A stretch of 64,000 bases of DNA from a virus. The position numbers and the translations under genes were made by a program. The notes beneath the pieces were generated by a model. That model saw only the letters and a program-made list of their open reading frames with translations. It was not told where the DNA came from and made no database searches. The stretch lies in the UHGV virus genome UHGV-0218015; one strand, 5' to 3'. Shown in pieces: positions 3,832 to 57,506 of the stretch (position 1 is the first letter of the stretch; each line of letters opens with the position of its first letter).

Positions 3832-3890
3832 AAAAAGAAAAGCTACTCCGACCCCAGAAGGGTCGGAGTAAGCTCGAATTATTTTTTTTT
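3831..3890. terminator. bidirectional terminator between convergent genes
   Basis: Stem CTCCGACCC / loop CAGAA / GGGTCGGAG flanked by an A-run (3830-3845) and a T-run (3882-3890). Confidence 0.7.
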
Positions 3891-3895
3891 GCTAT

Positions 3896-6613
3896 TTAGA
3901 GAGTTTCGTCGGTGTTGTCGTCTGTACCGGTATCCGTCTCGTCCGTGTCTTCAGCAGAAACGTCTTCTTCCGATGTCGTATCGGTTTCCGTCGTTTCTTC
4001 ATCAGACATGTCCAAGTCTTCATCACCACCCAGATCGTCACCACCTAAGTCCTCATCACCACCTAAGCCGCCGTCGTCTTCAGACCCGCCACCAAAGTCG
4101 CTACCCCCGCCGAAGTTATTGGCGTCCTCAGGATTCAAATCAGCCGCTTTTGCTAAGGTTTCAACTTTACCTGTTGCACGCTTAGCTAACTGAATCAACG
4201 TTTTAGATGCTGATGCGATTTCATCAGAAATCATCTTGACGTTTTCGCCACGTTTATCTTCGTCGTAGATCAAATCAAACAGATCGGTTTCTATGCCCTG
4301 ATTGCGTAGCCAGTTACGCGTATAGAACGATTTAATCATCGTCTTGAGATCATCAGGCTGCATTTCGATACCTTCATTCTGAAGCATATTTGAAATGTCG
4401 TCGGTAACAACCAGATCCGCCAGTTTCTCAATGAACTCATAGCGTTTGTCGAACAGATCCGCTTGTGAAGAAGAAGCTGATGTGTCTGGTGGTGGTAAGG
4501 TGACTTTCATGCCATTGATGAACTTCGCCAGATACTCTGACGTTTGCTTGGTCAAGTCTTCACTTGTTACGTTAGGATTTTGATTGCGAATATATTCAAC
4601 GATAATACGAATCAATTCTGCTTGTAACTTAGGAGAGGCTTGCAAACTGTTTGTCACGTAGCGTGTTAACGGCGTAGACAGGATTTCTTGTTTCTTCACG
4701 ATTTGCTGAGTCACCAGCAGTGACTTGGAATAAATCTGCGAAGCAAATTCCAGGTTTTCTGGTGTCAAAACAAGATCCGGGTCTACACACGCGATGTGGC
4801 AAGTACGACGGAGTAAGTTTTCATCGATTTGCTGATCGGGCACTTTATACTCAGGCGTTGTGTCCGAAACTGACACTTTATGACTGGCGTAGTATTCGTT
4901 ACCCGTCACGTTAAATGCAATCCCGGCATTAGCCCCCATTGACCAGGCATCGTTGATATCGCCCCACATCGGTAAACGACGATTATAGGAGTTGAGGATA
5001 TCCGATTTAACTTGGTCAACTGTTTTCTGACCGTTCATATCGTCCGGCGATAACTCAATGTCATATTGCATGTGACGCGCTGAGTTCAACACTGAAGAGT
5101 TCATTGTTGCGAACAACAGCGCCATCCTGACCGTGGAGATGATAAAGGAACGTTCGGTAATAGACACCCCGATACCATCTTCGTTAAAGTCGGTTGCAAA
5201 GTAGCATAAGTTATTAACCGGGATATAGACAACCTGTGTGTGACGTTTTGCGAGGTGACGTGCCAGTAGAATACGACCGAAGGTTTCGGTAATTTTCATG
5301 CTGATTTCGGCACCACCCAACGCTTGACTTAAAGCGCGGGTAAATTCGTTCTCAGCAATCTCGCTGCAACGTGCACTTAAACGGTTGGCGATTTCAGGCG
5401 TTATACGAGAGGTATTACCCAAGCCTAAATTAGAGCGGTTGATAATACTGTCTGTCATGCCGTCGTTATTAAGGTAGTTCATAAAGTTCGCGTCCCCGTA
5501 AAGTGAGGAACGTGAGTTGATGAAGTTACCCATATCGTCAATAATGGTCAGAAACCCAATAGGGTTACGAACGTCGTCACCAATAACCAACGGGGCGGTA
5601 GACTCAGCAGGGAGTAAACATTCGAAATAGTCGATCTGGTTGTTTTCATCCATCGAAATAATCGGGATGTTACCATAAAGCTGAGTTTTTGGTGTACTTT
5701 TGTACGCTTCGTTCAGATCACCTAAGTTGATGAAGCCTTTTTCAGCTGCATCACGCTGACGATCGTTAAACTGTTGATTAACTTCATACGGCGCAGCACC
5801 TGTCGGTGTGGCAGGCTTTTCATATGCGGCTTGCTCTAATTGGCCGTAGAGACCAGTACGAGCGTTCTCATGCGCGATTCGACGATAAGCATGGGGCAGT
5901 AACGTGATACGTGGGTTGTCGGTAATCGAGATGTCCATTTCGAACTTATCTGAGAACATCTTATCATGGTTACTGAAATTGATTTTCAGTGATTGTGGTC
6001 CTTTAACAGGTCCACGGACACGACTCAGAATAGATTCCACACCTACGCGTTGCCCGTCATCTTGCGAGTTGATTGGGCCGAGAATACCGAGTTGTTCTTC
6101 GAAATACGCGGCTTGAGAACGACGCATGGATTCGGTAGCGATTTTGGTGTCTAAACCGAACAGCTGGTCAAATCCATTGTCCGAGATTATCATCACTGGA
6201 CTTGCGCCTTTTGTTTTTAACGCGTCGTAAATCCACTGATATAATTTCTTAGGTAATTGACGTACGTTATCATGATAATCACGCGTTGGTGTCAGTAAGT
6301 CATTACGTAAGTCAATTGGAATGTCTGCGATGTTGTCGTAAATCAACGTGGTGTTGATTAAGTCTTTTGTCGACAGCAAGCTCGAAGTTGCAATGGTAAC
6401 AATCGTTTCGAGTTCAGGTAACGCATCAAAGATACGTTCCGCATTTTTGATAGTACGAATACGCGAACTTACAATTCCTGCAAGTTCCTGACGTGTTGGC
6501 GTAGAACCACCCTCGCTACGCGTACCGCGTTGTTGCTGGGGTGCTGGGCCCGTAGTTTTACGAAGAATTGCAGCTACGGCGGGGTCGCCCGTTAATTTAC
6601 TAATATCGTCCAT
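3896..6613 (-). CDS. large hypothetical protein (905 aa) with highly acidic Gly/Asp/Glu/Thr-rich C-terminal tail; possible virion or portal-like protein
   Basis: Long - strand ORF with GGAGA RBS 5 nt upstream of ATG; C-terminal GGDEDLGGDDLGGDEDL...TDETDTGTDD low-complexity tail. Confidence 0.6.
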   Translation of the reverse strand: MDDISKLTGDPAVAAILRKTTGPAPQQQRGTRSEGGSTPTRQELAGIVSSRIRTIKNAERIFDALPELETIVTIATSSLLSTKDLINTTLIYDNIADIPIDLRNDLLTPTRDYHDNVRQLPKKLYQWIYDALKTKGASPVMIISDNGFDQLFGLDTKIATESMRRSQAAYFEEQLGILGPINSQDDGQRVGVESILSRVRGPVKGPQSLKINFSNHDKMFSDKFEMDISITDNPRITLLPHAYRRIAHENARTGLYGQLEQAAYEKPATPTGAAPYEVNQQFNDRQRDAAEKGFINLGDLNEAYKSTPKTQLYGNIPIISMDENNQIDYFECLLPAESTAPLVIGDDVRNPIGFLTIIDDMGNFINSRSSLYGDANFMNYLNNDGMTDSIINRSNLGLGNTSRITPEIANRLSARCSEIAENEFTRALSQALGGAEISMKITETFGRILLARHLAKRHTQVVYIPVNNLCYFATDFNEDGIGVSITERSFIISTVRMALLFATMNSSVLNSARHMQYDIELSPDDMNGQKTVDQVKSDILNSYNRRLPMWGDINDAWSMGANAGIAFNVTGNEYYASHKVSVSDTTPEYKVPDQQIDENLLRRTCHIACVDPDLVLTPENLEFASQIYSKSLLVTQQIVKKQEILSTPLTRYVTNSLQASPKLQAELIRIIVEYIRNQNPNVTSEDLTKQTSEYLAKFINGMKVTLPPPDTSASSSQADLFDKRYEFIEKLADLVVTDDISNMLQNEGIEMQPDDLKTMIKSFYTRNWLRNQGIETDLFDLIYDEDKRGENVKMISDEIASASKTLIQLAKRATGKVETLAKAADLNPEDANNFGGGSDFGGGSEDDGGLGGDEDLGGDDLGGDEDLDMSDEETTETDTTSEEDVSAEDTDETDTGTDDNTDETL

Positions 6614-10867: not shown

Positions 10868-11445
10868 TGGAACCAAGCACACAAGCACTACCCACTGAAA
10901 TACTTGACTTGCTGATTCAAGCTGGAAACAAAAAGTTAAGTAAAGAACAATCTGAACAGTTAACGAAACTCTTGAAAGCGGCGTATGGGGATGAAGTCGA
11001 TGTTGACGTTACCCGTTCGGGAACAAAGATTCTTTCCGACTTACGACCGACGTTAATTGATAATTTAGGCAAACTATCAGAACAATTCCATCAGCAGGCA
11101 ACTGATGCTGTGGAATCTCTCGGGGATGAGGTTAGTAAAGAAACCATGCTAACCTTATGGCCGAAATTAGCCGCTTCCCAGAAGTTCATTATTGCCATTC
11201 TGACGTTGGCGACGGTTATTGTAACGGGGTTCCTGGGTTACGACACACATCAGCATTTTCCAGAAGACAGTCTAGATGTTCTGATTGTGACGTTGGTACC
11301 GTTCTTTGCATTGGTTGTTTTTGCGACTTGGCCGATTAAAACGTTGGCTTATAAGTCTCTTGAGATAGCCACAAAAGTTGTTGAGAAGAAGCTTGAGAAA
11401 TCAGGCCAGCTTAAGTCGAAGACAGAAAGCCCAACAACGAAATAA
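10867..11445 (+). CDS. putative membrane protein (192 aa)
   Basis: Two hydrophobic segments (FIIAILTLATVIVTGFLGY, LIVTLVPFFALVVFATW). Confidence 0.5.
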   Translation: MEPSTQALPTEILDLLIQAGNKKLSKEQSEQLTKLLKAAYGDEVDVDVTRSGTKILSDLRPTLIDNLGKLSEQFHQQATDAVESLGDEVSKETMLTLWPKLAASQKFIIAILTLATVIVTGFLGYDTHQHFPEDSLDVLIVTLVPFFALVVFATWPIKTLAYKSLEIATKVVEKKLEKSGQLKSKTESPTTK

Positions 11446-11450
11446 TATTA

Positions 11451-11489
11451 ACCTCTACCTTCGGGTAGAGGTTACTTCTTTTTATTTTT
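11451..11489 (+). terminator. rho-independent terminator
   Basis: Stem ACCTCTACC / TTCG / GGTAGAGGT followed by TACTTCTTTTTATTTTT. Confidence 0.75.
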
Positions 11490-11526
11490 ACAATTTTTAA
11501 ACATAGTGTGAGACTTAAAAGAAGGA

Positions 11527-12189
11527 GTGTTAATTGTGGAACCGTTACGCTTAATGACCAGAACGTTGCTGATACCTATTCAGGAGCTGAAGGTTGGACC
11601 GTTGGTCGCCTCTAATGGGGAAATTGTTGATTTCGTTAAAGACGAAAAAATTGTTACGACCGCTTTTCAAGAGACGGTCCATCGCTATTATCGTGCAGTG
11701 CCTTTATCCGGCAGTTTAGATTGTCCGGGTGTGGAGGGGAGTACGTCTGCGTTAATAGCGGAGCACTTAGAAAAGAAAGGGTTTGGGGTTGGGAAGGGAC
11801 AGGTTTTTGTAGACGCTGTCGAATTGAACGAGTATCAGAACGACCTAAGACTTCAGATAAGGAGATTACTCACCCGCTATGGTATTTTCTCGATTAATTG
11901 TAAGTTTGACGACGTTCGGATGTTAGACCACGGTTTTACTACCGCCCTTAAAATCTGTCGCGGTAAAAGATTCATTCAGTTTGTTTGGTGGGTGCCGACC
12001 CTACGTGGTGAGAGAAAAACGGTGGAAGGGTTGTACGGTTGGGCTTTATGGAGCGAAGTTCCAGTAACGAAACTCGATGCAATTATTCCACAACATCGAA
12101 ACGTCCCACTTAGCAGTTTATTTACTTCTGGTGGGAACACCACGTGGGATGAATTTGTTAAAAATGTTTTATCGATAGGGGAACAATAA
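11527..12189 (+). CDS. hypothetical protein (about 217-220 aa; likely GTG start at 11536 after AAGGAG)
   Basis: ORF after terminator; AAGGAG at 11517-11522. Confidence 0.45.
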   Translation: MLIVEPLRLMTRTLLIPIQELKVGPLVASNGEIVDFVKDEKIVTTAFQETVHRYYRAVPLSGSLDCPGVEGSTSALIAEHLEKKGFGVGKGQVFVDAVELNEYQNDLRLQIRRLLTRYGIFSINCKFDDVRMLDHGFTTALKICRGKRFIQFVWWVPTLRGERKTVEGLYGWALWSEVPVTKLDAIIPQHRNVPLSSLFTSGGNTTWDEFVKNVLSIGEQ

Positions 12190-14228: not shown

Positions 14229-14272
14229 AGGAGAGAACCTTTTCGGGGTTCTCTCCTGCTTTCTTTTTTTTT
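14229..14272 (+). terminator. rho-independent terminator
   Basis: Stem AGGAGAGAACC / loop / GGTTCTCTCCT followed by GCTTTCTTTTTTTTT. Confidence 0.75.
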
Positions 14273-28490: not shown

Positions 28491-28538
28491 TCTACCGCCC
28501 GATTCTATGGGCGGTAGATGTTTTTTATTTTTTTTTGA
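28491..28538 (+). terminator. rho-independent terminator
   Basis: Stem TCTACCGCCC / GATTCTAT / GGGCGGTAGA followed by TGTTTTTTATTTTTTTTT. Confidence 0.8.
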
Positions 28539-33799: not shown

Positions 33800-34345
33800 A
33801 TGGGGGTAGCATCCGGCTGGGTTGGAAGCTCAGCAAAGGCAGTAACCGGTCAGGAGTGGATGAGTGTGGCAGGTAATAAGCTTAAACTGAGCACGCCATT
33901 TAACATGTCGCAGATGGTCGGGCGTAGCGTAGAGGATCTTAAACTCGTTGTAGGCCGATCAACCTATGTTGTTTTGGTGCAGGCTACGAACACGCAGTGG
34001 GTTCCTATTACAAATACGTATGGGGGGTATTCGAACAACTCTACAACAACGGGTGCTGGTTCTACAGTATCGAATCGTGTGCAAACACAAAATGCGGCCG
34101 GTTCGGTGTCAGGTTCGATCTTGGGTTGTAGCGTCACACATCTTAGCCAAGTACAAAATACTGGTATTATCTACATGGCCCTAACCAATGGACCAAATCA
34201 GAATATTACGCTTTCGTTTAACGGAACGAAGATTACTTTTCTACCGTACTCCTACAGTAACGGCGTCCGGCGCTATGAGGCTAAGACGGCAACCAACTGG
34301 TTATTTAATCAGAACGGTGCAACAATTTCAATAAGTGTAGTCTAA
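33800..34345 (+). CDS. tail-fibre-module protein (181 aa), paralog of 34599..35105; possible distal adhesin
   Basis: N-terminus MGVASGWVGSSAKAVTGQEWMSVAGNKLKLSTPFNMSQMVGRS shared with the downstream paralog. Confidence 0.5.
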   Translation: MGVASGWVGSSAKAVTGQEWMSVAGNKLKLSTPFNMSQMVGRSVEDLKLVVGRSTYVVLVQATNTQWVPITNTYGGYSNNSTTTGAGSTVSNRVQTQNAAGSVSGSILGCSVTHLSQVQNTGIIYMALTNGPNQNITLSFNGTKITFLPYSYSNGVRRYEAKTATNWLFNQNGATISISVV

Positions 34346-34598: not shown

Positions 34599-35105
34599 AT
34601 GGGGGGGGTAACCGGTTCGTGGGTCGGTTCTTCGGCCAAGAACGAAACGGGCGAACAATGGATGAGCGCTGCTGGTAGTAAATTAGGATTGGGTAGACCT
34701 TTTATGATGAGTCAAATGGTGGGACGATCTATGGGCTGTAAAATTGCAACCGCTGCATATAGCGATTCTTTAGGTAAGAAATGGGGCGCAGTAGGACCAA
34801 GCTGGCCGTTAAACCAGAAAAATCAGGGAACCATTCAAAACGCGGGTAACTGCGGGGTGGGAACTTTAGTAGGTATTGAGTTACAGTTAACGACGATAGT
34901 TGCCAACGCAAAGCCTACTTTAGCGGTTTACTTACAAGGAGGCAGAGCCTCTAACATTACCGTAAATTTAGGTGGTAACACCTGCGCGCTGGCCTATCAG
35001 CAGGTTATTAACGGACAGCATTATTACTGGACTAATAACATCAGCGCTGCGTTCCAAAACGTGATGAAATCGACAGGCGCACTGCGTGATTTGAGAATTA
35101 GCTAA
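34599..35105 (+). CDS. tail-fibre-module protein (168 aa), paralog of 33800..34345; start codon fused to a G8 tract
   Basis: MGGVTGSWVGSSAKNETGEQWMSAAGSKL...MSQMVGRS; ATG followed by GGGGGGG (34601-34608). Confidence 0.5.
   Translation: MGGVTGSWVGSSAKNETGEQWMSAAGSKLGLGRPFMMSQMVGRSMGCKIATAAYSDSLGKKWGAVGPSWPLNQKNQGTIQNAGNCGVGTLVGIELQLTTIVANAKPTLAVYLQGGRASNITVNLGGNTCALAYQQVINGQHYYWTNNISAAFQNVMKSTGALRDLRIS
34601..34608. repeat. G8 homopolymer inside the start of gene 34599
   Basis: ATGGGGGGGGTAACC read directly. Confidence 0.9.
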
Positions 35106-35139: not shown

Positions 35140-35149
35140 GGGGGGGGGG
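35140..35149. repeat. G10 homopolymer in the intergenic region upstream of gene 35204
   Basis: AATCGTGGGGGGGGGGTGAATG read directly. Confidence 0.9.
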
Positions 35150-35203: not shown

Positions 35204-35716
35204 GTGGAAAAATTCACACCAGATTTATCACTAACTTCACTTAACATGGTTATTTCACTGGTTAACCATGACCTCCAACTTGACTTGCAAGAGAACGAGG
35301 TTGAAGTCAGTGACGTAAAAACCAGTGATGAAATGGATCGTGACTCCACTGCCATTGTAAAGATTAAACGTCCTGGAAACAGAACGTTGCAAATCTACTA
35401 CAACCGTTTAACCGCAGAGCGGTGGTTAAACCAACAACCTATTCTGGTAAAAGTAAGAGGTGAAGGGTTTAATGCACACGATCTTATCGAATCCGTCAAT
35501 GCCGTTTGTGGTGCTAACTTACAAACCGACGATTTAACCGACCAGTCGTTCACGGTAGGTAAAGACGCGGTAACGCTTAGCATCGCTCCGAATTCCATCG
35601 CTTATAAAGGACAGTTCTCCGTGGTGGTTTTCGGCCCAGATGAAACACCGTGTGGCATCGGTGATGATTCTGTCGTGTTGACGTTTGACAATAAAATCTT
35701 AACTTTTGGAGAGTAG
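35204..35716 (+). CDS. tail-fibre-associated accessory protein (170 aa, GTG start), paralog of 28553..29113
   Basis: TAGGAGGTAAACATAC-GTG RBS; sequence parallels the 28553 gene; directly upstream of the tailspike gene. Confidence 0.5.
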   Translation: MEKFTPDLSLTSLNMVISLVNHDLQLDLQENEVEVSDVKTSDEMDRDSTAIVKIKRPGNRTLQIYYNRLTAERWLNQQPILVKVRGEGFNAHDLIESVNAVCGANLQTDDLTDQSFTVGKDAVTLSIAPNSIAYKGQFSVVVFGPDETPCGIGDDSVVLTFDNKILTFGE

Positions 35717-50052: not shown

Positions 50053-50090
50053 GGGGGGGGGTGGTAACCTCCCCCGATATTTCTTTAACT
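50053..50090 (+). terminator. terminator-like hairpin containing a G9 tract
   Basis: GGGGGGGGGTGGTAACCTCCCCC hairpin followed by GATATTTCTTTAACTTTCATTTT. Confidence 0.5.
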
Positions 50091-50112: not shown

Positions 50113-50643
50113 ATGGCAGCTACTAACCAGATGATGTTAGTTGCGCTTTATAATGCTGCTAACACAGAGCTACCGCATCAGGTCACTGATAAAGAGGTAA
50201 CTTTTGGTCAACCTGTCGCTCTTGAAAAGGGCGATAAAAATACCAAAGTTACCATGACCGCACGTACAGAGTCTGAAAATTTTAAAGGCGCAATCGAACT
50301 GCATTACGATCGTCTGGAACCTGGCGTTATCGGACGCATTGAGGTAACGGACGATTTGGCTCTCTGGACTGGAGAAAACGAACTACGCGACCGATTACAG
50401 TTCTACATCAATAAAGTAAAACCTGACGACTCTATCGCGCCTGGTGACGTTGAGTACACCACCGAAGACCAGAAAGACGAACACGATAGCGTCACTCTGC
50501 GTACGGTAACTTGTACCGTTACTGAAAAGAACCTCCGTTATAAACCGGGTGTAATGGCAACTTTCGTAATTACGCCGAAAGTTGTTGATAATCGTATTGA
50601 CCTGGCCACCACCGACGGTGAACTTGACGGCTTTACTGCTTAA
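50113..50643 (+). CDS. member 4 of paralog family (176 aa)
   Basis: NQMMLVALYNAANTELPHQVTDKEVTF...NTKVTMTARTESENFKGAIELHYDRL. Confidence 0.55.
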   Translation: MAATNQMMLVALYNAANTELPHQVTDKEVTFGQPVALEKGDKNTKVTMTARTESENFKGAIELHYDRLEPGVIGRIEVTDDLALWTGENELRDRLQFYINKVKPDDSIAPGDVEYTTEDQKDEHDSVTLRTVTCTVTEKNLRYKPGVMATFVITPKVVDNRIDLATTDGELDGFTA

Positions 50644-51387: not shown

Positions 51388-51935
51388 TCATCTTCTCCTT
51401 TAACTAAACCTAGCTCAATTAACAATTCAAAATCGATTTGGCGAAATTTGTTATCAAAACCAGAATCCCAATCGATGTGTAATCCTTGTCGTTCTTCATC
51501 GGTAAGTTCAGGATAAATTAAATCATGGAACGCTTCACGTTCCTCGTAAAATCCATCGATAGTAGAATCTGGATTCCGCATTGCGTAAATCGTGATGCCC
51601 GGAAAGGATAATCCTAATGCTGTTATAGATTCGACGCTTGGTTCTTGCAAGGCCCTGCGTAATAGCACGATTTTATGTCGTGGAAAATCTAGTACACGTT
51701 GTTCAAACCCAGGATTCCGTTTCTCAATTTCTGTAACTGAAAGATCGGTGAGTTCTGTGCAATACATTGGGATAACTACAGTTACTCCGTGGCGAATTAA
51801 TAATCGTTTAACATCGTCAGTGAAGTCTTCACCATTAATTTGCACATAACAACCAAACAATTTTGTAGTTTCTAAAAATTTTTCCAGAAAACGGAATTTA
51901 CGCTTCGTAATATTGTGGATCAGAATTGGCTTCAT
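51363..51935 (-). CDS. hypothetical protein (190 aa) in rSAM/Cys-rich operon
   Basis: - strand ORF overlapping the SPASM rSAM gene end by 38 nt. Confidence 0.5.
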   Translation of the reverse strand: MKPILIHNITKRKFRFLEKFLETTKLFGCYVQINGEDFTDDVKRLLIRHGVTVVIPMYCTELTDLSVTEIEKRNPGFEQRVLDFPRHKIVLLRRALQEPSVESITALGLSFPGITIYAMRNPDSTIDGFYEEREAFHDLIYPELTDEERQGLHIDWDSGFDNKFRQIDFELLIELGLVKGEDECLLLTKA

Positions 51936-53220
51936 CTTTGGTTTCTCTCAATTGTTTTTCTTTCTGGGTACGTTCACGTACGCAACGAGGGCAATAACAC
52001 ATGCTATTGTCATGAAAATCTTTCACTGACGTCGTGCCCATTTTCTGTTTCCAATATTCCGCAACCATCAACTTTGCAGTTGTCCAGCCGCATTGACGGC
52101 GTTCAGCGTGATAAGCTTTGCGATCTTCTAGCGTCCCTTCTCCATTCTCGTAAGATGCAGCCGCACAACTACCACAAGCGTGCTTCATTGGACAACCTAA
52201 ACAGGTTTCAGGATAGTTGGTGTATTGCGTCTGAATCTCTTCCAGCAATTTCCCGTCATCTAAGCTAACGAATTCCCGGCCAACTAATTCAAATACGGCA
52301 GAACGTGATGTTACGGTTGACATGAAACGGTTACAACCGAAGATCTTACGATCAAATCCTAAGCAGGTCATGTGTGTTAACGTACCGCAGAACGGGCGTA
52401 AACGTTCTGGATTCAAACGTACAGTATCGTTATACAATAACTGATCACGCCAGTTTGGTTCCCAGATAGTATCAAAATCTAACCCGTCTGGAATGATGTG
52501 CGACAAAGTGTTACGTGGGTTGGTGTGTAAGCCCTTCTCAACCCAATAATCAACCACGTCCATCATCTGCAATGCGATTGAAGTAGCCATGCTCCGTGGC
52601 ATAATGTCTTCGAAGGTTACGTTGCCAGAAATAGTTCCGCCGCCAGTAATATCAATTAATGATTTCATTCCAGCAGCATAGAACGGTAACGTTTCCAACG
52701 TAAAGGTCGCTTTTACACCAAGTTCTGCAATACCGACTTCTTTTAAGTAGTTATAGCCCCGCACAGCGGCCTCGTAAGATCCTTCACGAGTTGTTGTAAA
52801 AATCCGGTACTTATCGTGCGATTCGGGCAATCCATCAATAGACACGCCGATAGAAAGCCTGTCTTTCCAACGTTCAATAATTTCTCTATTCAAAGGTCTA
52901 TCTAACAACGTTCCGTTAGTAGAGATGCTAAACATAAACGGCCGATTATGTTTTTCGCATAACTCTTCTGCGGTTTCAAATGCCGCCTTTAATAGTTTAG
53001 GCTGCATAAACGGCTCACCACCGATGATATCGATAACGACCTCGATGTTTGTCAGATCTTTATCTCGTTCAAAACAAGCGTGTAGAAAATCAACAATATC
53101 CGCCGCTTTGTTATTACGGGGATACTTACGTTCGTAACAATACTCACAGTCCAAGTTACACGATAAATTTGTAACAATTTGATAAGTCAGTTGTTTTGGA
53201 TAACTATTTTCTTGACTCAT
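51898..53220 (-). CDS. radical SAM enzyme with C-terminal SPASM-like auxiliary Cys cluster domain (440 aa), putative peptide-modifying maturase
   Basis: N-terminal CNLDCEYC (C-x3-C-x2-C), GGEP SAM-binding motif, C-terminal CGTLTHMTC...GC and CLGCPMKHACGSC (C-x2-C-x5-C-x2-C) clusters. Confidence 0.8.
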   Translation of the reverse strand: MSQENSYPKQLTYQIVTNLSCNLDCEYCYERKYPRNNKAADIVDFLHACFERDKDLTNIEVVIDIIGGEPFMQPKLLKAAFETAEELCEKHNRPFMFSISTNGTLLDRPLNREIIERWKDRLSIGVSIDGLPESHDKYRIFTTTREGSYEAAVRGYNYLKEVGIAELGVKATFTLETLPFYAAGMKSLIDITGGGTISGNVTFEDIMPRSMATSIALQMMDVVDYWVEKGLHTNPRNTLSHIIPDGLDFDTIWEPNWRDQLLYNDTVRLNPERLRPFCGTLTHMTCLGFDRKIFGCNRFMSTVTSRSAVFELVGREFVSLDDGKLLEEIQTQYTNYPETCLGCPMKHACGSCAAASYENGEGTLEDRKAYHAERRQCGWTTAKLMVAEYWKQKMGTTSVKDFHDNSMCYCPRCVRERTQKEKQLRETKDEANSDPQYYEA

Positions 53221-54142
53221 TTTCCGCCCCTCTATTACGCTCTGCCATCACTACACGACGAATGTACTCGTAAGCTTCTACACCTATTGAGGAGGCTAGT
53301 TGGTTACACCCTGCTTTTGTAGTTATTGGTACATTTTTAAGTTGGTTTTCTTCCCCGTCCGCGTCTATCCTGAGACTTTCGCTACAGACATTACAAGCAT
53401 GATCGAAGAATCTGTTTACAATAAAACCGCAGTCTCTAGAATTTAGAACGTTTAATCTTTCTATATTCTCCTGAATTCTAAAATACCCGTAAATAAAGTT
53501 CATAACGTGATCGGGAGATAACGGTTTTGGCATGTTTTTATCTAGTAATAAGGACATGGAACGAAAACCGTAATGATAGATAGCAGTATGTAATTGAATG
53601 ATATCTTCATGCCATCTTTTGTTGGATAAATTCTCCCTCGTAACAACAGCCCAAGTGTTAACATTATTCAAGCTGTAAATTACTTCTAACGCTTCATGAC
53701 AATTATCATCAATAAAGCGCTTAAAAGGCCGTTCGGAAAGATTAAACCCATCGATGCTAACATATATAGCATCGAATTGTTTTAACAACGGTAGATGCGA
53801 TTTACGCATTTTTAAACCGTTCGTGAACATCTGGTGTTTGAGTTCAGGACGGATCGTTTTTAATTCGTCGACAAACGCCTCAATCTTTCGAGTTGCCAGT
53901 AGCGGTTCACCGCCAGTCCACTGAATTTCAGTAATGGTTGGGTTAGACGCCAACGCTTTCAAAATTCGTTCACGTTGAAACTCTCGCGGAGAATCTTCAC
54001 GATGCATGTAATAGGCTCCGCCGCAGAAGCTACAGTCCAGATTACATTTGGATGTAGCAACTACGGACAATACGGTGGGTTTATTGTATAAACGATTCGA
54101 TAACCTTGGCTCTACGTCGGTTGTCATTGCAGGTGAGTCCAT
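53204..54142 (-). CDS. radical SAM enzyme (312 aa), paralog of 56177..57091
   Basis: SKCNLDCSFCGG (C-x3-C-x2-C), QWTGGEPLL; C-terminal C-x12-C-x2-C; three nucleotide-identical patches with the paralog. Confidence 0.8.
   Translation of the reverse strand: MDSPAMTTDVEPRLSNRLYNKPTVLSVVATSKCNLDCSFCGGAYYMHREDSPREFQRERILKALASNPTITEIQWTGGEPLLATRKIEAFVDELKTIRPELKHQMFTNGLKMRKSHLPLLKQFDAIYVSIDGFNLSERPFKRFIDDNCHEALEVIYSLNNVNTWAVVTRENLSNKRWHEDIIQLHTAIYHYGFRSMSLLLDKNMPKPLSPDHVMNFIYGYFRIQENIERLNVLNSRDCGFIVNRFFDHACNVCSESLRIDADGEENQLKNVPITTKAGCNQLASSIGVEAYEYIRRVVMAERNRGAENESRK
53457..53539. repeat. 83-nt patch 100% identical to 56421..56503 (between radical SAM paralogs)
   Basis: CTTTCTATATTCTCCTGAATTCTAAAATACCCGTAAATAAAGTTCATAACGTGATCGGGAGATAACGGTTTTGGCATGTTTTT present in both genes; further identical patches 53782..53818 = 56747..56783 and 54002..54055 = 56966..57019. 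Confidence 0.85.
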
Positions 54143-54149
54143 CTATTTT

Positions 54150-55037
54150 TTAAATATAGCCAATGGATAACAAAGGATCGTCGTAAGCGTTAACTCCAGG
54201 TTTTAATACAAACGGTGAATTGTAAGCCTCAATAATACGATTAAGGTCTTTATAACGCACGTTTAAACGTTCTAGATCCGCTAACGTTACGTTACGTTCC
54301 AATACCGCCGACACTGCCGCTTTTTCTTCATCAGTTAACGTGACTTTCGTCATTAAGAAACTAACAAGTTTCGCTAAATCTGCTTCCGATGACGGATGTT
54401 CACCAATACGTGTTTGAATTAAATGCTGCATCCATGGTTTACGAATACGTTTTGTGATTTCATGTTCATCTGTAAGGGCAACCCATACTGAACGTTCACG
54501 ATCCCACATAAATTTGTAACTGTACGCCATCAGATCTGCTAAACAGTTGATGCCAAGTTCCTCGTAACCTTCTATTTCAATATACGGTTCAGTATCAACA
54601 TAGTTTTTTGTTTCTACAGGAACCAGGGCATAAAAGTACGGGAATGAACCAAGATAGTCTGGAGACCACCAACGTCGTGCTACAGGCTTCGCATTCAACT
54701 CTTTAAATGGCGTAAAGAACAATTCCAAATCTACAGAATTATTCAGAATACCGTCACTAAAGAAATATTTACCGTCAACCAATTTACCGCGTAAATCTGA
54801 ATCACCGGTAAACACCACTACGCTTTCTGCTGTCAGATCGCGTATTTTAAAAGTGTTTTCTACTGAATAGTTATTGCGATCGGTAAAAAAACGACCACGC
54901 ACTTTGGGCCATTCGCCAGGTAACTGGGTTAACAAACGAACTTTATCTTCCAAATGAGCGCGTATTGAATCGGGGGAAGAAATATGAAGTGGGTGGTTGA
55001 AAATTGTTTTATAGGCTAAATGCAAATCGTTTTTCAT
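54150..55037 (-). CDS. hypothetical protein (295 aa) in rSAM/Cys-rich operon
   Basis: - strand ORF, 7 nt downstream gap to rSAM gene. Confidence 0.5.
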   Translation of the reverse strand: MKNDLHLAYKTIFNHPLHISSPDSIRAHLEDKVRLLTQLPGEWPKVRGRFFTDRNNYSVENTFKIRDLTAESVVVFTGDSDLRGKLVDGKYFFSDGILNNSVDLELFFTPFKELNAKPVARRWWSPDYLGSFPYFYALVPVETKNYVDTEPYIEIEGYEELGINCLADLMAYSYKFMWDRERSVWVALTDEHEITKRIRKPWMQHLIQTRIGEHPSSEADLAKLVSFLMTKVTLTDEEKAAVSAVLERNVTLADLERLNVRYKDLNRIIEAYNSPFVLKPGVNAYDDPLLSIGYI

Positions 55038-55049
55038 TGATTACTCCAA

Positions 55050-55568
55050 TTATTTTACGGTCAATCTGACGTTCAAGGTATAGAACCCGCCACGCCATTG
55101 CCTGCCGGTAACTTCAAATTCTGCAGTAAAGCCGTTTGATTTACTCGGTTGCTGCTTAATCGCCATGCTTCCGCCGGAATTACTTAATACTTCTAATGAG
55201 ATAGAAGCAGAAGATGCATTACCGATAGAGTCTATCTTAAAACTAGCCGCGTCTGTAAAATTAACAGTGATACCATTACCCATTGCAACTTGAGGGTAGG
55301 CGTAGGACTTTCCAGACAGTAACGATTTAAAGACCCTTATCGGTTTCTCTCTACCGGTTGACGTTACGCATTGAATAAAGACAGCCCCAGTAGAGAAATT
55401 GATACGAACAGTATCTTTAGCGTGTAGCTTAGACTCAACATAAACAACGGCTTTGTTGTCGTAGGTTGGTCTTGAAGGGGTTGGCGTAGAACCACCGCTA
55501 GAGGGCTTACTTACCCCCCCCCGCCCCCTTACTACAGCTACCGCTGCACGACCAACTACATCCGCCAT
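55050..55568 (-). CDS. hypothetical protein (172 aa) with Gly/Ser/Pro-rich N-terminal linker; 5' end overlaps Cys-rich peptide gene C across a G-homopolymer
   Basis: Only in-frame ATG is at 55568, 62 nt inside gene C; N-terminal codons span GGGGGCGGGGGGGGG (C9-G-C5 on + strand, 55514-55528). Confidence 0.4.
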   Translation of the reverse strand: MADVVGRAAVAVVRGRGGVSKPSSGGSTPTPSRPTYDNKAVVYVESKLHAKDTVRINFSTGAVFIQCVTSTGREKPIRVFKSLLSGKSYAYPQVAMGNGITVNFTDAASFKIDSIGNASSASISLEVLSNSGGSMAIKQQPSKSNGFTAEFEVTGRQWRGGFYTLNVRLTVK

Positions 55569-55716
55569 TACAATTATAATGACTTAAAGGTAATCCTGCG
55601 AGATTGTTGGTTGAGGAAACCGTTCCTTGGTTTGCAATATAGTTGTTTGCATTAGCGGTGGTGATATATCCCTCCGCCGTTACTAATCTGTCGCGTATGT
55701 TTTTAAGACTTATCAT
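55507..55716 (-). CDS. Cys-rich peptide C (69 aa): conserved leader plus short C-x-x-x repeat core; putative RiPP precursor
   Basis: MISLKNIRDRL leader; core HYNCNGGCSWSCSGSCSK parallels peptides A and B; starts 3 nt after the stop of peptide B. Confidence 0.55.
   Translation of the reverse strand: MISLKNIRDRLVTAEGYITTANANNYIANQGTVSSTNNLAGLPLSHYNCNGGCSWSCSGSCSKGAGGGK
55514..55528. repeat. homopolymeric tract C9-G-C5 (+ strand) at the junction of peptide C and the 172-aa ORF
   Basis: TTACCCCCCCCCGCCCCCTT read directly from sequence. Confidence 0.9.
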
Positions 55717-55719
55717 TTC

Positions 55720-56118
55720 TTATCTTCCAGTACACGATTGCTGACATCCGCCTCGACATGAACCTGAACATGTTCCGGTGCAACTACTTGAACAACCGCC
55801 CGAGCAATTACCTGTGCACCCTCCTGAGCAGGTACTGCTACAACCTGTGCAACCTGTACTACATCCTGAAACACAGTTCGCTGAACAGGAAGAACCGCAG
55901 CCGCCGGAGGCGTTGCCGGTACAGCCGCCCGAACAACTTGAGCACGTCCAGCTACAGCTACCTCCACAGTCATAGTGATTTCTCGGCTGTCCTCCAAACA
56001 GATCGCTATTATTAGTGGCTTTACCACGAATATAGTTCTGCACCGCACCTGTATTTTTTAATGCAGTAGAGTCTATGTTATCTAGCCGGGCCTTTAAAGA
56101 AGATAAACCAATCGCCAT
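55720..56118 (-). CDS. Cys-rich peptide B (132 aa): about 50-aa leader plus (C-x-x-x)n core with about 21 Cys; putative RiPP precursor
   Basis: Leader LSSLKARLDNID...; core DCGGSCSWTCSSCSGGCTGN...CSGGCSSSCTGTCSGSCRGGCQQSCTGR with Cys at nearly every fourth position. Confidence 0.65.
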   Translation of the reverse strand: MAIGLSSLKARLDNIDSTALKNTGAVQNYIRGKATNNSDLFGGQPRNHYDCGGSCSWTCSSCSGGCTGNASGGCGSSCSANCVSGCSTGCTGCSSTCSGGCTGNCSGGCSSSCTGTCSGSCRGGCQQSCTGR

Positions 56119-56176: not shown

Positions 56177-57091
56177 TTATCGTAGTTTTTCTGAGACTCT
56201 ATTCTTAGCCCCTACCACACGACGTATATAGTCGTAAGCATCTAATCCAACCTTTCTGGCCAAGTCACTACAGCCGTGTTGCGTTACGATTTCAACGTTC
56301 TTTACTTGGTTCTGGGCACCGTCAGACTCAATGCGAAAACAACGACTACATGTGTTACAGGGTTCATCAAATAACGCATTTAGCGTAAACGCACATTCAC
56401 TTCGATTGGACGAATTCAGTCTTTCTATATTCTCCTGAATTCTAAAATACCCGTAAATAAAGTTCATAACGTGATCGGGAGATAACGGTTTTGGCATGTT
56501 TTTGTCCAAAACCAGCGACATCTCACAAAAACCATAATGGTAAATGTGGTTATGTAACGCAATTATATCTTCGTACCAACGTTTATCCCCAATACGCTCG
56601 CGTGTCAAAACCGCCCAAGTACGAATATTTTTCAATTCGTAAATTGTCTCCAAAACCTCGTATTGTTTTTCTTCGATAATCCGCATGAACGGACGCTCTG
56701 ATTCTTTGAATCCATCCATGCTAAAAAAGATACTATCAAAACCCTTTAACAACGGTAGATGCGATTTACGCATTTTTAAACCATTGGTATACAGGTAATG
56801 TTCGCAACGAGGATACTTCTCCCTTATCTCTTCTATAAGGGTATCAATTTTACGCGTGGCAAGTAATGGTTCGCCCCCTGACCATTGGATATTTGTGATA
56901 GTCGGGTTATTTTCCAGCGCCTCGATAATACTTTCCTTTTGTACTTCTGCGGTTGTATCCTCTCTATGCATGTAATAGGCTCCGCCGCAGAAGCTACAGT
57001 CCAGATTACATTTGGATGTTGTAATCACGTTTAACGTTCTCGGATTACTGTAAAGCTTATCGGATACCGTCGGTCTAGTAAGTTCTTCCAT
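56177..57091 (-). CDS. radical SAM enzyme (304 aa), paralog of 53204..54142
   Basis: SKCNLDCSFCGG, QWSGGEPLL; shares identical nucleotide patches and PKPLSPDHVMNFIYGYFRIQENIERLN with the paralog. Confidence 0.8.
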   Translation of the reverse strand: MEELTRPTVSDKLYSNPRTLNVITTSKCNLDCSFCGGAYYMHREDTTAEVQKESIIEALENNPTITNIQWSGGEPLLATRKIDTLIEEIREKYPRCEHYLYTNGLKMRKSHLPLLKGFDSIFFSMDGFKESERPFMRIIEEKQYEVLETIYELKNIRTWAVLTRERIGDKRWYEDIIALHNHIYHYGFCEMSLVLDKNMPKPLSPDHVMNFIYGYFRIQENIERLNSSNRSECAFTLNALFDEPCNTCSRCFRIESDGAQNQVKNVEIVTQHGCSDLARKVGLDAYDYIRRVVGAKNRVSEKLR

Positions 57092-57110: not shown

Positions 57111-57506
57111 TTATGGGTTAGAACAACCACCTGCACAAGAACCACTACACCCCGAGGAACAACGTCCAGCACATCCCCCACTACAAGTCCCACTACATCC
57201 TGAACAACCACCCGAACACGTTCCGCTACAACCACTGCATTGATTACCACACGCAGAGGAACAGCTTCCTACGCACACCGATGTACATGTACCTGAACAA
57301 CTCGTACAACCATGCGTACAACCGTTTGAGCATGTCCAGCTACAGCTACCTCCACAATCTAATCGACCGGGTGTCCAACCTGAAAATGAATCAGCAGCGT
57401 TATGTGCTTTCGACGCAACTTGCGGATCAACACGTGGGCCAGTTGCCATTTGGTTCTCTACGTTGGTGATTCGGTCACGCACATTTTTAACACTGATCGC
57501 CATCAC
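57111..57506 (-). CDS. Cys-rich peptide A (131 aa; ATG at 57503 likely start): leader plus (C-x-x-x)n core with about 23 Cys; putative RiPP precursor
   Basis: Leader MAISVKNVRDRITNVENQ; core DCGGSCSWTCSNGCTHGCTSCSGTC...CSGGCAGRCSSGCSGSCAGGCSNP; AAGGA RBS. Confidence 0.65.
   Translation of the reverse strand: MMAISVKNVRDRITNVENQMATGPRVDPQVASKAHNAADSFSGWTPGRLDCGGSCSWTCSNGCTHGCTSCSGTCTSVCVGSCSSACGNQCSGCSGTCSGGCSGCSGTCSGGCAGRCSSGCSGSCAGGCSNP

What the first reader, a model, noticed from the sequence alone, without database searches (positions are those of the whole stretch)
55507..55568. G/C homopolymer at the overlap of Cys-rich peptide C and the downstream 172-aa ORF: possible frameshift fusion or phase-variable switch
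Peptide C ends ...CSGSCSKGAGGGK-stop within a G5-C-G9 tract (- strand; C9-G-C5 at 55514..55528 on +). The next ORF (55050..55568) has its only ATG 62 nt inside gene C, and its first codons run through the same tract in another frame. A 1-nt change in tract length (slipped-strand mispairing, ribosomal frameshift, or a homopolymer sequencing error) would fuse the leader-plus-Cys core of C to a Gly/Ser/Pro linker and the about 150-aa body of the downstream protein. That would give a Cys-rich module tethered to a folded domain.
Basis: partly seen in the sequence, partly recalled or inferred. Interest (0 to 1): 0.65.

Follow-up and report, generated by a model that had tools for sequence, protein, structure and literature searches.

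The report
Variable poly-G switch fusing two phage proteins
In an uncultivated Salmonella/E. coli jumbo phage, a run of nine G's that changes length between near-identical genomes decides whether a small cysteine-rich peptide is made alone or joined to a 150-residue swappable domain, which looks like a switch for varying a probable host-recognition protein.

Summary
A G5-C-G9 tract (sense strand) ends peptide C, and the downstream 172-aa ORF reads through it in the +1 frame.

The ATG at 55568 is not a real start:
- It is made by the Asn-Gly codons of peptide C.
- It is lost in relatives by a change that is synonymous in C.
- It has no ribosome-binding site.
- Every substitution in the overlap is synonymous in C and non-synonymous in the ORF.

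The 150-aa body is under purifying selection (dN/dS 0.07-0.2), so it must be translated.

Among near-identical assemblies the tract is G9, G10, G11 or G4AG5. G11 gives a natural 222-aa in-frame fusion. Relatives carry the same N-terminus fused in frame to two other, highly divergent C-terminal domains. One has an interrupted, locked-on Gly tract. Two lineages have interrupted, out-of-frame tracts and a decayed body.

TAAGTAA after the tract stops both non-fusion frames cleanly.

Three more variable poly-G tracts lie in the window, one of them at the start of a Gp38-like adhesin gene.

Best reading: a hypermutable poly-G tract that switches between the short peptide and the fusion. RNA-level or ribosomal slippage may contribute. 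Within-sample switching remains unproven.

The parts
55514..55522 (-). G9 homopolymer, the switch. Lengths of 3n+2 (G8, G11) fuse peptide C to the body. G9 and G10 give the short peptide only.
   Evidence: Length is G9/G10/G11/G4AG5 among near-identical loci.
55523..55530 (-). AAG GGG GC, a Shine-Dalgarno-like purine stretch just 5' of the tract (AAGGGGG here, AAGGGAG or AAAGGAG in relatives). The 'G5' is not conserved as a homopolymer.
   Evidence: Any role as a frameshift stimulator is inference only.
55507..55513 (-). TAAGTAA: TAA at 55513..55511 stops the -1 frame (G10 state, ...GAGGG*). TAA at 55509..55507 stops frame 0 (G9 state, ...GAGGGK*). The +1 frame reads GTA AGT AAG = Val-Ser-Lys into the linker.
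   Evidence: Both short products are seen in databases: P0003 69 aa in 37 contigs, P0008 68 aa in 38 contigs. An equivalent TAAATAA follows the tract in L044.
55507..55716 (-). Peptide C: a 48-aa leader-like N-terminus, a CNGGCSWSCSGSC core and a Gly tail. It is a paralogue of peptides A and B (phrog_6085).
   Evidence: Seven DNA haplotypes encode the identical peptide, with 12 of 12 variable sites at third codon positions.
55050..55514 (-). C-terminal extension in the +1 frame: a Gly/Ser/Pro/Thr linker (VSKPSSGGSTPTPSRPTYDNK) plus an all-beta body of about 130 aa. It has no start codon of its own.
   Evidence: dN/dS is 0.07-0.2 against relatives. The body is fused in frame in L020, P0029 and P0030. 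The AF2 model is all-beta but low confidence.
55515..55568 (-). Spurious 5' part of the called 172-aa ORF (MADVVGRAAVAVVRGRGG), the +1 frame of the Cys/Ser/Gly codons of C.
   Evidence: The ATG comes from the AAT-GGN (Asn-Gly) codons of C and is lost in L005, L008 and L013 (AAC). All substitutions in the overlap fall at second codon positions of this frame. No SD is seen upstream. Peptide B carries a similar 111-aa wrong-frame ORF.
55720..56118 (-). Peptide B, a Cxxx-repeat Cys-rich peptide (132 aa).
   Evidence: TIGR04114 22.3 bits against a cutoff of 20; phrog_6085.
57111..57506 (-). Peptide A, a Cxxx-repeat Cys-rich peptide (about 130 aa).
   Evidence: TIGR04114 20.1 bits against a cutoff of 20; phrog_6085.
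56177..57091 (-). Radical SAM enzyme (304 aa), an extra copy lying between A and B in this lineage.
   Evidence: PF04055 8e-14; phrog_1802; weak PapB-like hit.
54150..55037 (-). Conserved 295-aa partner protein of unknown function (phrog_8030).
   Evidence: AF2 pLDDT 86 but no PDB neighbour.
53204..54142 (-). Radical SAM enzyme (312 aa).
51898..53220 (-). Radical SAM enzyme (440 aa).
34601..34608 (+). Second coding poly-G tract: G8 directly after the ATG of a Gp38_N adhesin paralogue (34599..35105).
   Evidence: PF21721 1.3e-18. G8 to G11 among 11 loci, with gene calls of 168/169 aa (on) or 124 aa (off).
35140..35149 (+). Intergenic G10 tract, 55 nt upstream of the DUF7941 gene at 35204.
   Evidence: G9 to G11 among loci.
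50053..50061 (+). Intergenic G9 tract, 52 nt upstream of the DUF7941 gene at 50113. It can pair with a downstream C5.
   Evidence: G9/G10 among loci.

Best explanation
The G9 run is a hypermutable homopolymer at a domain junction. The functional long gene is a fusion of four parts: the peptide-C leader, a Cxxx Cys core, a Gly/Ser/Pro linker and a C-terminal beta domain of about 130 aa.

Slipped-strand changes in tract length move the downstream domain in and out of frame.
- Lengths of 3n+2 (G8, G11) give the fusion of about 220 aa.
- G9 and G10 end in the TAAGTAA dual stop. They give a clean 69- or 68-aa peptide C, equivalent to the stand-alone peptide C of SPN3US-type phages.

So the phage population can carry two forms of one module: with or without a swappable, probably ligand-binding domain.

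Shown: the anatomy; the length differences between near-identical genomes; the natural fusions; the locked-on and locked-off alleles; the lack of an independent start; and purifying selection on the body.

Inferred: that switching is rapid and reversible within a population; that RNA polymerase or ribosome slippage on the same tract adds some fusion product in off genotypes; and that the body is a receptor-binding or adhesin domain displayed on a radical-SAM-modified Cys-rich stalk.
For: (1) Tract length. In loci anchored on the identical 295-aa neighbour gene (so unbiased for the tract), the counts are G9 in about 10, G10 in about 7, G4AG5 in about 3 and G11 in 1 of 21 contigs. L014 (G10) and L016 (G9) differ by one substitution in about 5 kb. 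The only other indels are short intergenic A runs.

(2) Natural in-frame fusions: L020, P0029 and P0030.

(3) The same N-terminus is fused in frame to two other, highly divergent C-terminal domains, P0035 and P0036. L043 encodes the Gly run as GGC GGA GGG GGA GGG, which is locked on. L044 has G11 in frame.

(4) Locked-off lineages have a decayed body. L045 has tract G6-C-GG, a deletion of about 210 nt and a 1-nt frameshift. L047 has tract G6-AAGG, a deletion of about 330 nt and an in-frame stop.

(5) Body dN/dS is 0.07-0.2.

(6) There is no independent start. The ATG derives from Asn-Gly codons and is lost in three loci. All 12 variable sites in C are third-position, and hence second-position in the ORF frame. 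No SD is present.

(7) Both short products are abundant in databases.

(8) The window holds four sense-strand poly-G tracts against about 0.12 runs of 9 or more expected. One sits at the start of a Gp38_N adhesin gene, and all four vary in length.

(9) A Shigella flexneri assembly breaks its contig exactly at the tract: P0006 and P0007 are partial proteins on either side.
Against: - No read-level data were available, so heterogeneity within a sample and reversibility are not shown.
- The two intergenic poly-G tracts vary as much as the coding ones. Variation alone is therefore a property of the tracts (mutational or technical), not proof of selection for switching.
- In the window's allele the fusion state is rare among consensus assemblies (about 1 in 21), well below the one-third expected for free drift. 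Yet the body is strongly conserved. This could mean the fusion is mainly made by RNA-level or ribosomal slippage rather than by DNA switching.
- The function of the body is unknown. The model is low confidence (pLDDT 53) and no family matches.
- Many contigs come from a few metagenome projects and are not independent.
Confidence: 0.62

Rival explanations
1. Programmed recoding. The DNA length matters little. Ribosomal frameshifting (+1 on GGG_G in the G9 state, -1 at GGG-TAA in the G10 state) or RNA-polymerase slippage on the G run makes a fixed minority of fusion product from any genotype, as with the phage tail chaperones G/GT or prfB.
For: - Off-state consensus predominates for the window allele (about 20 of 21) while the body has dN/dS 0.07-0.2, so some expression from off genotypes is plausible.
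- An SD-like AGGGGG / AAGGAG lies just 5' of the run in all lineages. From my own knowledge, this resembles the stimulator of the prfB +1 shift.
- Stop codons follow the run immediately in both off frames.
Against: - The frame relation is not fixed. G9, G10 and G11 all occur, as do locked in-frame alleles. G9 and G10 would need shifts in opposite directions.
- The downstream RNA structure is unremarkable (z = -2.2).
- The SD-like motif is largely dictated by the Lys-Gly-Ala codons and is also present in JN03, which has no body.
- Locked-off lineages lose the body.
Confidence: 0.22
2. Sequencing or assembly artefact. The true genome has one tract length (perhaps always in frame), and the G9/G10/G11 calls are homopolymer errors of short-read assemblies.
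For: - Intergenic G tracts vary in the same way.
- All sources are short-read assemblies.
- One assembly breaks at the tract.
Against: - Lengths span 8 to 11 at one site across independent assemblies.
- The off arrangement recurs in lineages about 10% divergent with different tract contexts (G5CG9 against G11).
- Interrupted tracts are locked on with an intact body or locked off with a decayed body. Sequencing error cannot create this evolutionary pattern.
- The dual-stop TAAGTAA design is conserved.
Confidence: 0.1
3. Two ordinary overlapping genes. The 172-aa protein starts at the ATG at 55568, inside gene C, and is made independently.
For: - Gene callers and PGAP annotate it this way (P0002, 'hypothetical protein ZK97_13510').
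- The ORF is open from the ATG in G9 genotypes.
Against: - The ATG is lost in L005, L008 and L013 by a change that is synonymous in C.
- In G10 genotypes the ATG is out of frame with the body, and callers fall back to internal Mets, giving 96- or 77-aa products.
- The overlap evolves as non-coding in this frame.
- No SD is present.
- Cys/Ser/Gly codons keep the +1 frame open by composition, as with the 111-aa ghost ORF over peptide B.
Confidence: 0.04

Closest known systems
Hypermutable polyG tracts in Campylobacter Fletchervirus phages (Sorensen et al. 2021, Cell Rep 35:109214; cited in PMC10579305 and PMC10877375)
   Same: Poly-G runs lie inside phage host-recognition genes, and length changes shift the reading frame. 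PMC10579305 describes this as giving 'phase variable RBP expression'. There are several tracts per genome.
   Different: - The host is enterobacterial and the phage is an SPN3US-related jumbo phage lineage.
- The tract sits at a domain junction followed by a dual stop, so the choice is between a short peptide and a fusion rather than simple on/off.
- The N-terminal module is a Cxxx-repeat, radical-SAM-associated peptide.
- No experimental switching or phenotype data exist here.
Phage contingency loci in T2/T4 and other phages (Gomez, Barrick, Waters, bioRxiv 10.1101/2025.10.21.683753)
   Same: Simple-sequence repeats in phage genes undergo polymerase-slippage frameshifts that generate heterogeneity in the population.
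   Different: That preprint reports on/off inactivation of genes in every functional class. Here the tracts are long G runs, strongly over-represented and concentrated at fibre and adhesin-type genes, and one of them toggles a C-terminal domain.
Programmed frameshifts: prfB +1, and the phage tail chaperone G/GT -1 (own knowledge)
   Same: Two products share an N-terminus. The longer one is made by a frame change at a slippery run near a stop codon, and an SD-like element lies upstream.
   Different: The frame relation is not conserved: G9, G10, G11 and locked in-frame alleles all occur. That is the signature of DNA-level variation rather than a fixed recoding site.
TIGR04114 Cys-rich Cxxx-repeat radical-SAM target proteins, and PapB-type ranthipeptide systems (NCBIfam)
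   Same: The peptides have Cxxx repeats and lie next to radical SAM enzymes. A and B reach the TIGR04114 cutoff. The rSAMs give weak PapB-like hits.
   Different: - The locus is phage-encoded and sits in a fibre-type gene neighbourhood.
- Peptide C has only three Cxxx units and scores below the cutoff.
- One member is fused to a folded domain.
- No chemistry has been demonstrated.
Modular receptor-binding proteins with a conserved N-terminus and a swappable C-terminus (T-even gp37/gp38, the Mu G segment, Bordetella phage DGR; own knowledge and PMC10579305)
   Same: A conserved N-terminal module carries at least three highly divergent C-terminal cassettes among close relatives. A Gp38_N adhesin gene with its own poly-G tract lies nearby.
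   Different: Diversification is by cassette replacement plus homopolymer phase variation, not by inversion or reverse transcription. Receptor binding is not shown.

Membership tests
Homopolymeric contingency locus / phase-variable phage gene | A long homopolymer inside or abutting a coding region, over-represented relative to composition | tested here: met
   A G9 run lies at the 3' end of C. The window holds three G/C runs of 9 or more plus one G8, against about 0.12 runs of 9 or more expected.
Homopolymeric contingency locus / phase-variable phage gene | Tract length differs among otherwise near-identical genomes | tested here: met
   G9, G10, G11 and G4AG5 are seen. L014 and L016 differ by 1 substitution in about 5 kb.
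Homopolymeric contingency locus / phase-variable phage gene | Length change alters the protein product | tested here: met
   The products are 69 aa, 68 aa or a 222-aa fusion.
Homopolymeric contingency locus / phase-variable phage gene | High-rate, reversible switching within a population | not testable with these tools
   No reads were available. A contig break at the tract in one assembly is only a hint.
Homopolymeric contingency locus / phase-variable phage gene | A phenotypic consequence (host range or adsorption) | not testable with these tools
   This needs the phage and locked mutants.
Programmed ribosomal frameshift site | A fixed, conserved frame relation between the two ORFs across relatives | tested here: not met
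   +1, -1 and in-frame arrangements all occur.
Programmed ribosomal frameshift site | A slippery sequence plus a stimulator (upstream SD or downstream structure) | tested here: inconclusive
   A GGG run and an SD-like AAGGGGG are present. The downstream fold gives z = -2.2. The motif is also dictated by the coding sequence.
Independent overlapping gene (172-aa ORF) | A conserved start codon with a ribosome-binding site | tested here: not met
   The ATG is lost in L005, L008 and L013 and is out of frame in G10 genotypes. No SD is present.
Independent overlapping gene (172-aa ORF) | Protein-coding constraint in the overlap | tested here: not met
   All variable sites are at position 3 in the C frame, which is position 2 in the ORF frame.
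TIGR04114 Cxxx-repeat radical-SAM target (RiPP-like precursor) | HMM score at or above the curated cutoff | tested here: not met
   Peptide C scores 13.7 against a cutoff of 20. Paralogues A (20.1) and B (22.3) just pass.
TIGR04114 Cxxx-repeat radical-SAM target (RiPP-like precursor) | An adjacent radical SAM maturase | tested here: met
   Three PF04055 proteins lie in the cluster. The cognate family was not identified; only weak PapB-like hits and similar were found.
TIGR04114 Cxxx-repeat radical-SAM target (RiPP-like precursor) | Post-translational modification of the Cys core | not testable with these tools
   This needs co-expression and mass spectrometry.
Modular phage receptor-binding protein | A conserved N-terminal module with divergent C-terminal cassettes among relatives | tested here: met
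   Three cassettes are seen: the window type, P0035 and P0036. Between cassettes, BLASTP gives at most a 56-aa stretch at 32% identity.
Modular phage receptor-binding protein | A fold or family of a known receptor-binding domain, and presence in the virion | tested here: inconclusive
   [not shown]

The most novel reading that the evidence does not exclude
Peptides A, B and C are not secreted RiPPs. They are radical-SAM-cross-linked, Cys-rich stalks of a phage fibre, and the C stalk displays a swappable lectin-like receptor-binding domain. Whether that domain is present is set stochastically by a poly-G tract. That tract is one of a genome-wide set of poly-G contingency tracts (Gp38-like adhesin, DUF7941 genes) that give this jumbo phage lineage a combinatorial, bet-hedging host-recognition repertoire.
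Probability: 0.2. Interest if true: 0.85.

Novelty: new variant of a known kind. Interest (0 to 1): 0.6.

Why it matters
If the switch is real, three things follow.

- Phase variation by poly-G tracts, so far demonstrated for Campylobacter phages, would also operate in enterobacterial jumbo phages. These phages are widespread in gut metagenomes and contaminate many Salmonella, E. coli and Shigella assemblies.
- The design is distinctive. A junction tract with a dual stop yields either a small Cys-rich peptide or that peptide carrying a domain, rather than simply turning a gene on or off.
- It links radical-SAM/Cxxx-repeat peptide chemistry to a modular protein that probably recognises the host.

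On the practical side, annotation pipelines systematically mis-call this locus. They produce ghost ORFs, truncated bodies and missed peptides. Host-range predictions for such phages would also depend on tract state.

Tried and rejected
Searches for the body outside its own clade found nothing useful:
- tblastn against INPHARED phages: no match.
- IMG/VR peptide-pattern scan: no confirmed locus.
- PLSDB plasmids and complete E. coli genomes: no match.
- Exact junction pattern in GTDB representative genomes: no match.
- Pfam, NCBIfam and PHROGs: no family for the body.
- HMMER against 1.8 billion representatives: only its own family, plus weak hits (E about 2e-4) to a repeated domain in two unannotated bacterial proteins with no Pfam match.

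Structure:

Other checks:
- RNA folding downstream of the tract gave z = -2.2, which is not convincing as a frameshift stimulator.
- The promoter/terminator scan found no signal between C and the body.
I worked around this by anchoring on the window's 295-aa neighbour.
- Literature searches for SPN3US radical SAM and Cys-rich peptides found nothing relevant.

I rejected the idea that the G5-C part is functionally required, because it is GGG/GGA-variable.

Full report
**1. The observation**

On the - strand the sequence reads ...TGT AGT AAG GGG GCG GGG GGG GGT AAG TAA GCC CTC TAG....
- The G9 run occupies 55522..55514, the C is at 55523 and the G5 at 55528..55524.
- Peptide C (69 aa, 55507..55716) ends ...CSGSCSKGAGGGK*.
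- The 172-aa ORF (55050..55568) lies in the +1 frame and overlaps C by 62 nt.
- Its next in-frame canonical start after 55568 is Met96.

The window is 44% G+C, so about 0.12 G or C runs of 9 or more are expected. It holds three such runs plus a G8, and all four are poly-G on the sense strand of the adjacent genes.

**2. Context**

The window comes from a jumbo phage only distantly related at the DNA level to SPN3US-type phages (Seoulvirus). Matches are about 73-82% identical and patchy.

The gene order on the - strand is:
- a 1728-aa protein;
- a 441-aa coiled-coil virion structural protein (phrog_2163);
- Cys-rich peptide A;
- a radical SAM enzyme;
- peptide B;
- peptide C;
- the 172-aa ORF;
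- a conserved 295-aa protein (phrog_8030);
- two more radical SAM enzymes;
- a 190-aa protein;
- a DUF4376 protein.

A, B and C are paralogues (phrog_6085). A and B just reach the NCBIfam model TIGR04114, 'Cys-rich repeat' radical-SAM target, and C falls below it.

In Salmonella phage JN03 the same cluster has a stand-alone peptide C ending ...CSRGAGNR*. The 295-aa gene follows 18 nt later. There is no body and no G/C run of 7 or more. In SPN3US the homologous stretch likewise has no G/C run of 7 or more. A more distant lineage, whose 295-aa homologue is 44% identical, also has only a stand-alone peptide.

**3. The 172-aa ORF does not start at its ATG**

- The ATG is formed by the Asn-Gly codons (tgt AAT GGc) of the conserved CNGGCSW motif of C.
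- In L005, L008 and L013 the Asn codon is AAC, so the ATG is gone. This change is synonymous in C.
- No Shine-Dalgarno sequence precedes the ATG.
- Seven DNA haplotypes encode an identical peptide C. All 12 variable sites are third positions in the C frame, which are second positions in the ORF frame.
- Cys/Ser/Gly codons leave the +1 frame open by composition. Peptide B carries a comparable 111-aa ghost ORF, which is the ORF annotated in SPN3US in place of the real peptide.

Downstream of the tract, in contrast, the +1 frame is clearly coding. dN/dS against relatives is 0.07-0.2, with dS up to 0.7.

**4. Natural variants**

The body has only two 90%-identity clusters in 5.8 billion proteins. 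Their members include:
- peptide C of 69 aa (...GAGGGK*, 37 contigs);
- peptide C of 68 aa (...GAGGG*, 38 contigs);
- bodies called as 172 aa, or as 96 or 77 aa from internal Mets;
- two 222-aa in-frame fusions, P0029 and P0030.

I anchored on the window's 295-aa neighbour, which does not bias for tract state. This returned 10 loci, plus 11 'similar' ones that were not shown. The tract was G9 in about 10, G10 in about 7, G4AG5 in about 3 and G11 in 1 (L020, where a 222-aa fusion was called). L014 (G10) and L016 (G9) differ by one substitution in about 5 kb. The only other indels in a 15-sequence alignment are short intergenic A runs. A Shigella flexneri assembly breaks its contig exactly at the tract.

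**5. The fusion is the genuine long product**

A search with the predicted fusion found P0035 (226 aa) and P0036 (210 aa). Both have the same peptide-C N-terminus joined in frame to two other C-terminal domains. Those domains share at most a short C-terminal motif with the window's body.
- In L043 the Gly run is encoded GGC GGA GGG GGA GGG. It is not a homopolymer and is locked in frame.
- In L044 the run is G11, in frame.
- Both alleles also have split variants.

Conversely, two lineages have interrupted, out-of-frame tracts.
- L045 (GCA G6 C GG) keeps only a remnant of the body, with a deletion of about 210 nt and a 1-nt frameshift.
- L047 (G6 AAGG) has a deletion of about 330 nt and an in-frame stop.

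So the body survives where it can be fused and decays where it cannot.

**6. Design of the junction**

TAAGTAA follows the run.
- In the G9 state, frame 0 ends GGT AAG TAA.
- In the G10 state it ends GGG TAA.
- Only 3n+2 lengths read GTA AGT AAG (Val-Ser-Lys) into a Gly/Ser/Pro/Thr linker.

Both off states therefore give a tidy peptide C that resembles the stand-alone form in SPN3US-type phages. The body-3 allele has an equivalent TAAATAA.

To reach the body frame without a DNA change, a G9 genotype needs a +1 shift and a G10 genotype needs a -1 shift. This follows directly from the sequence.

**7. Other tracts**

- A G8 follows the ATG of a Gp38_N adhesin paralogue at 34599 (PF21721, 1.3e-18). 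It ranges from G8 to G11 in 11 loci, switching the gene call between 168/169 aa and 124 aa.
- A G10 (35140) lies 55 nt upstream of a DUF7941 gene, and a G9 (50053) lies 52 nt upstream of another. Both also vary.

The variation of the intergenic tracts is an important control. It shows that length instability, or miscalling, is a property of every long G run here. Variation alone therefore does not prove selection for switching.

**8. Interpretation**

The best-supported model is a hypermutable poly-G tract at a domain junction that toggles a conserved Cys-rich module between a stand-alone form and a form carrying a swappable domain.

The closest known precedent is the polyG-controlled receptor-binding genes of Campylobacter phages (Sorensen 2021, as cited in PMC10579305 and PMC10877375). 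The more general phage contingency loci reported for T-even phages are also relevant (bioRxiv 10.1101/2025.10.21.683753).

A fixed programmed frameshift is disfavoured because the frame relation is not conserved. However, the rarity of the fusion state in consensus assemblies of the window allele, combined with strong conservation of the body, leaves room for transcriptional or ribosomal slippage as a contributor.

A pure sequencing artefact cannot explain the locked-on alleles with an intact body and the locked-off alleles with a decayed body.

**9. What remains unknown**

- The chemistry of the radical SAM enzymes. Only weak PapB-like hits were found.
- The role of the 295-aa protein. Its model is confident but has no PDB neighbour.
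- Switching within a population and the phenotype. These need reads, the phage and proteomics.

Noticed in passing
window 34599-35105 (+), tract 34601-34608: A Gp38_N adhesin paralogue (168 aa) has a G8 run directly after its ATG (ATG GGG GGG GTA). Related assemblies have G8, G9, G10 or G11, which switches the gene call between 168/169 aa and a 124-aa truncation. The upstream paralogue (33800-34345) has no tract.
   Followed up: partly
window 35140-35149 and 50053-50061 (+): Two intergenic poly-G tracts (G10, G9) lie 55 and 52 nt upstream of DUF7941 paralogues (35204, 50113). Both vary in length (G9-G11, G9-G10) among near-identical assemblies. The second can pair with a downstream C5 as a terminator-like hairpin. 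A promoter or UTR role was not tested.
   Followed up: partly
L042 (SPN3US) 4654-4989; L001 (JN03) 11284-11619; window 55713-56048: Public annotations and gene callers place a wrong-frame 111-aa ORF over Cys-rich peptide B. They mostly miss peptides A, B and C, because Cys/Ser/Gly codons keep the alternative frames open.
   Followed up: partly
L045 985-1272; L047 2330-2490: Two lineages with interrupted, out-of-frame tracts (peptide C ends ...KGAGGR*) carry decayed remnants of the body. One has a deletion of about 210 nt plus a 1-nt frameshift. The other has a deletion of about 330 nt plus a TAT-to-TAA stop.
   Followed up: yes
window 56177-57091 (-): This lineage has an extra 304-aa radical SAM gene inserted between peptides A and B. 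JN03, L002, L043, L044 and L047 have A directly followed by B. It is a paralogue of the 312-aa enzyme at 53204-54142.
   Followed up: no
L024 (Shigella flexneri GCA_013957665.1, contig end); proteins P0006 and P0007: An isolate assembly breaks its contig exactly at the poly-G tract, leaving a partial 61-aa peptide C on one contig and a partial 149-aa body on another. This is consistent with ambiguous reads at the tract. The phage appears as contigs of about 220-230 kb in many Salmonella, E. coli and Shigella isolate assemblies and in gut-type metagenomes.
   Followed up: no
[not shown]
   Followed up: partly
window 3882-3890, 14264-14272, 28528-28536 (+): Three T9 runs are also above expectation for the composition. 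They may be terminator tails. I did not examine them.
   Followed up: no
proteins P0033, P0034 (bacterial proteins of about 550 aa; N-termini look like signal peptides, not tested): The C-terminal half of the body (…QQPSKSNGFTAEFEV…) weakly matches a repeat unit of roughly 95-110 aa that is matched four times in two unannotated bacterial proteins with no Pfam family.
   Followed up: partly
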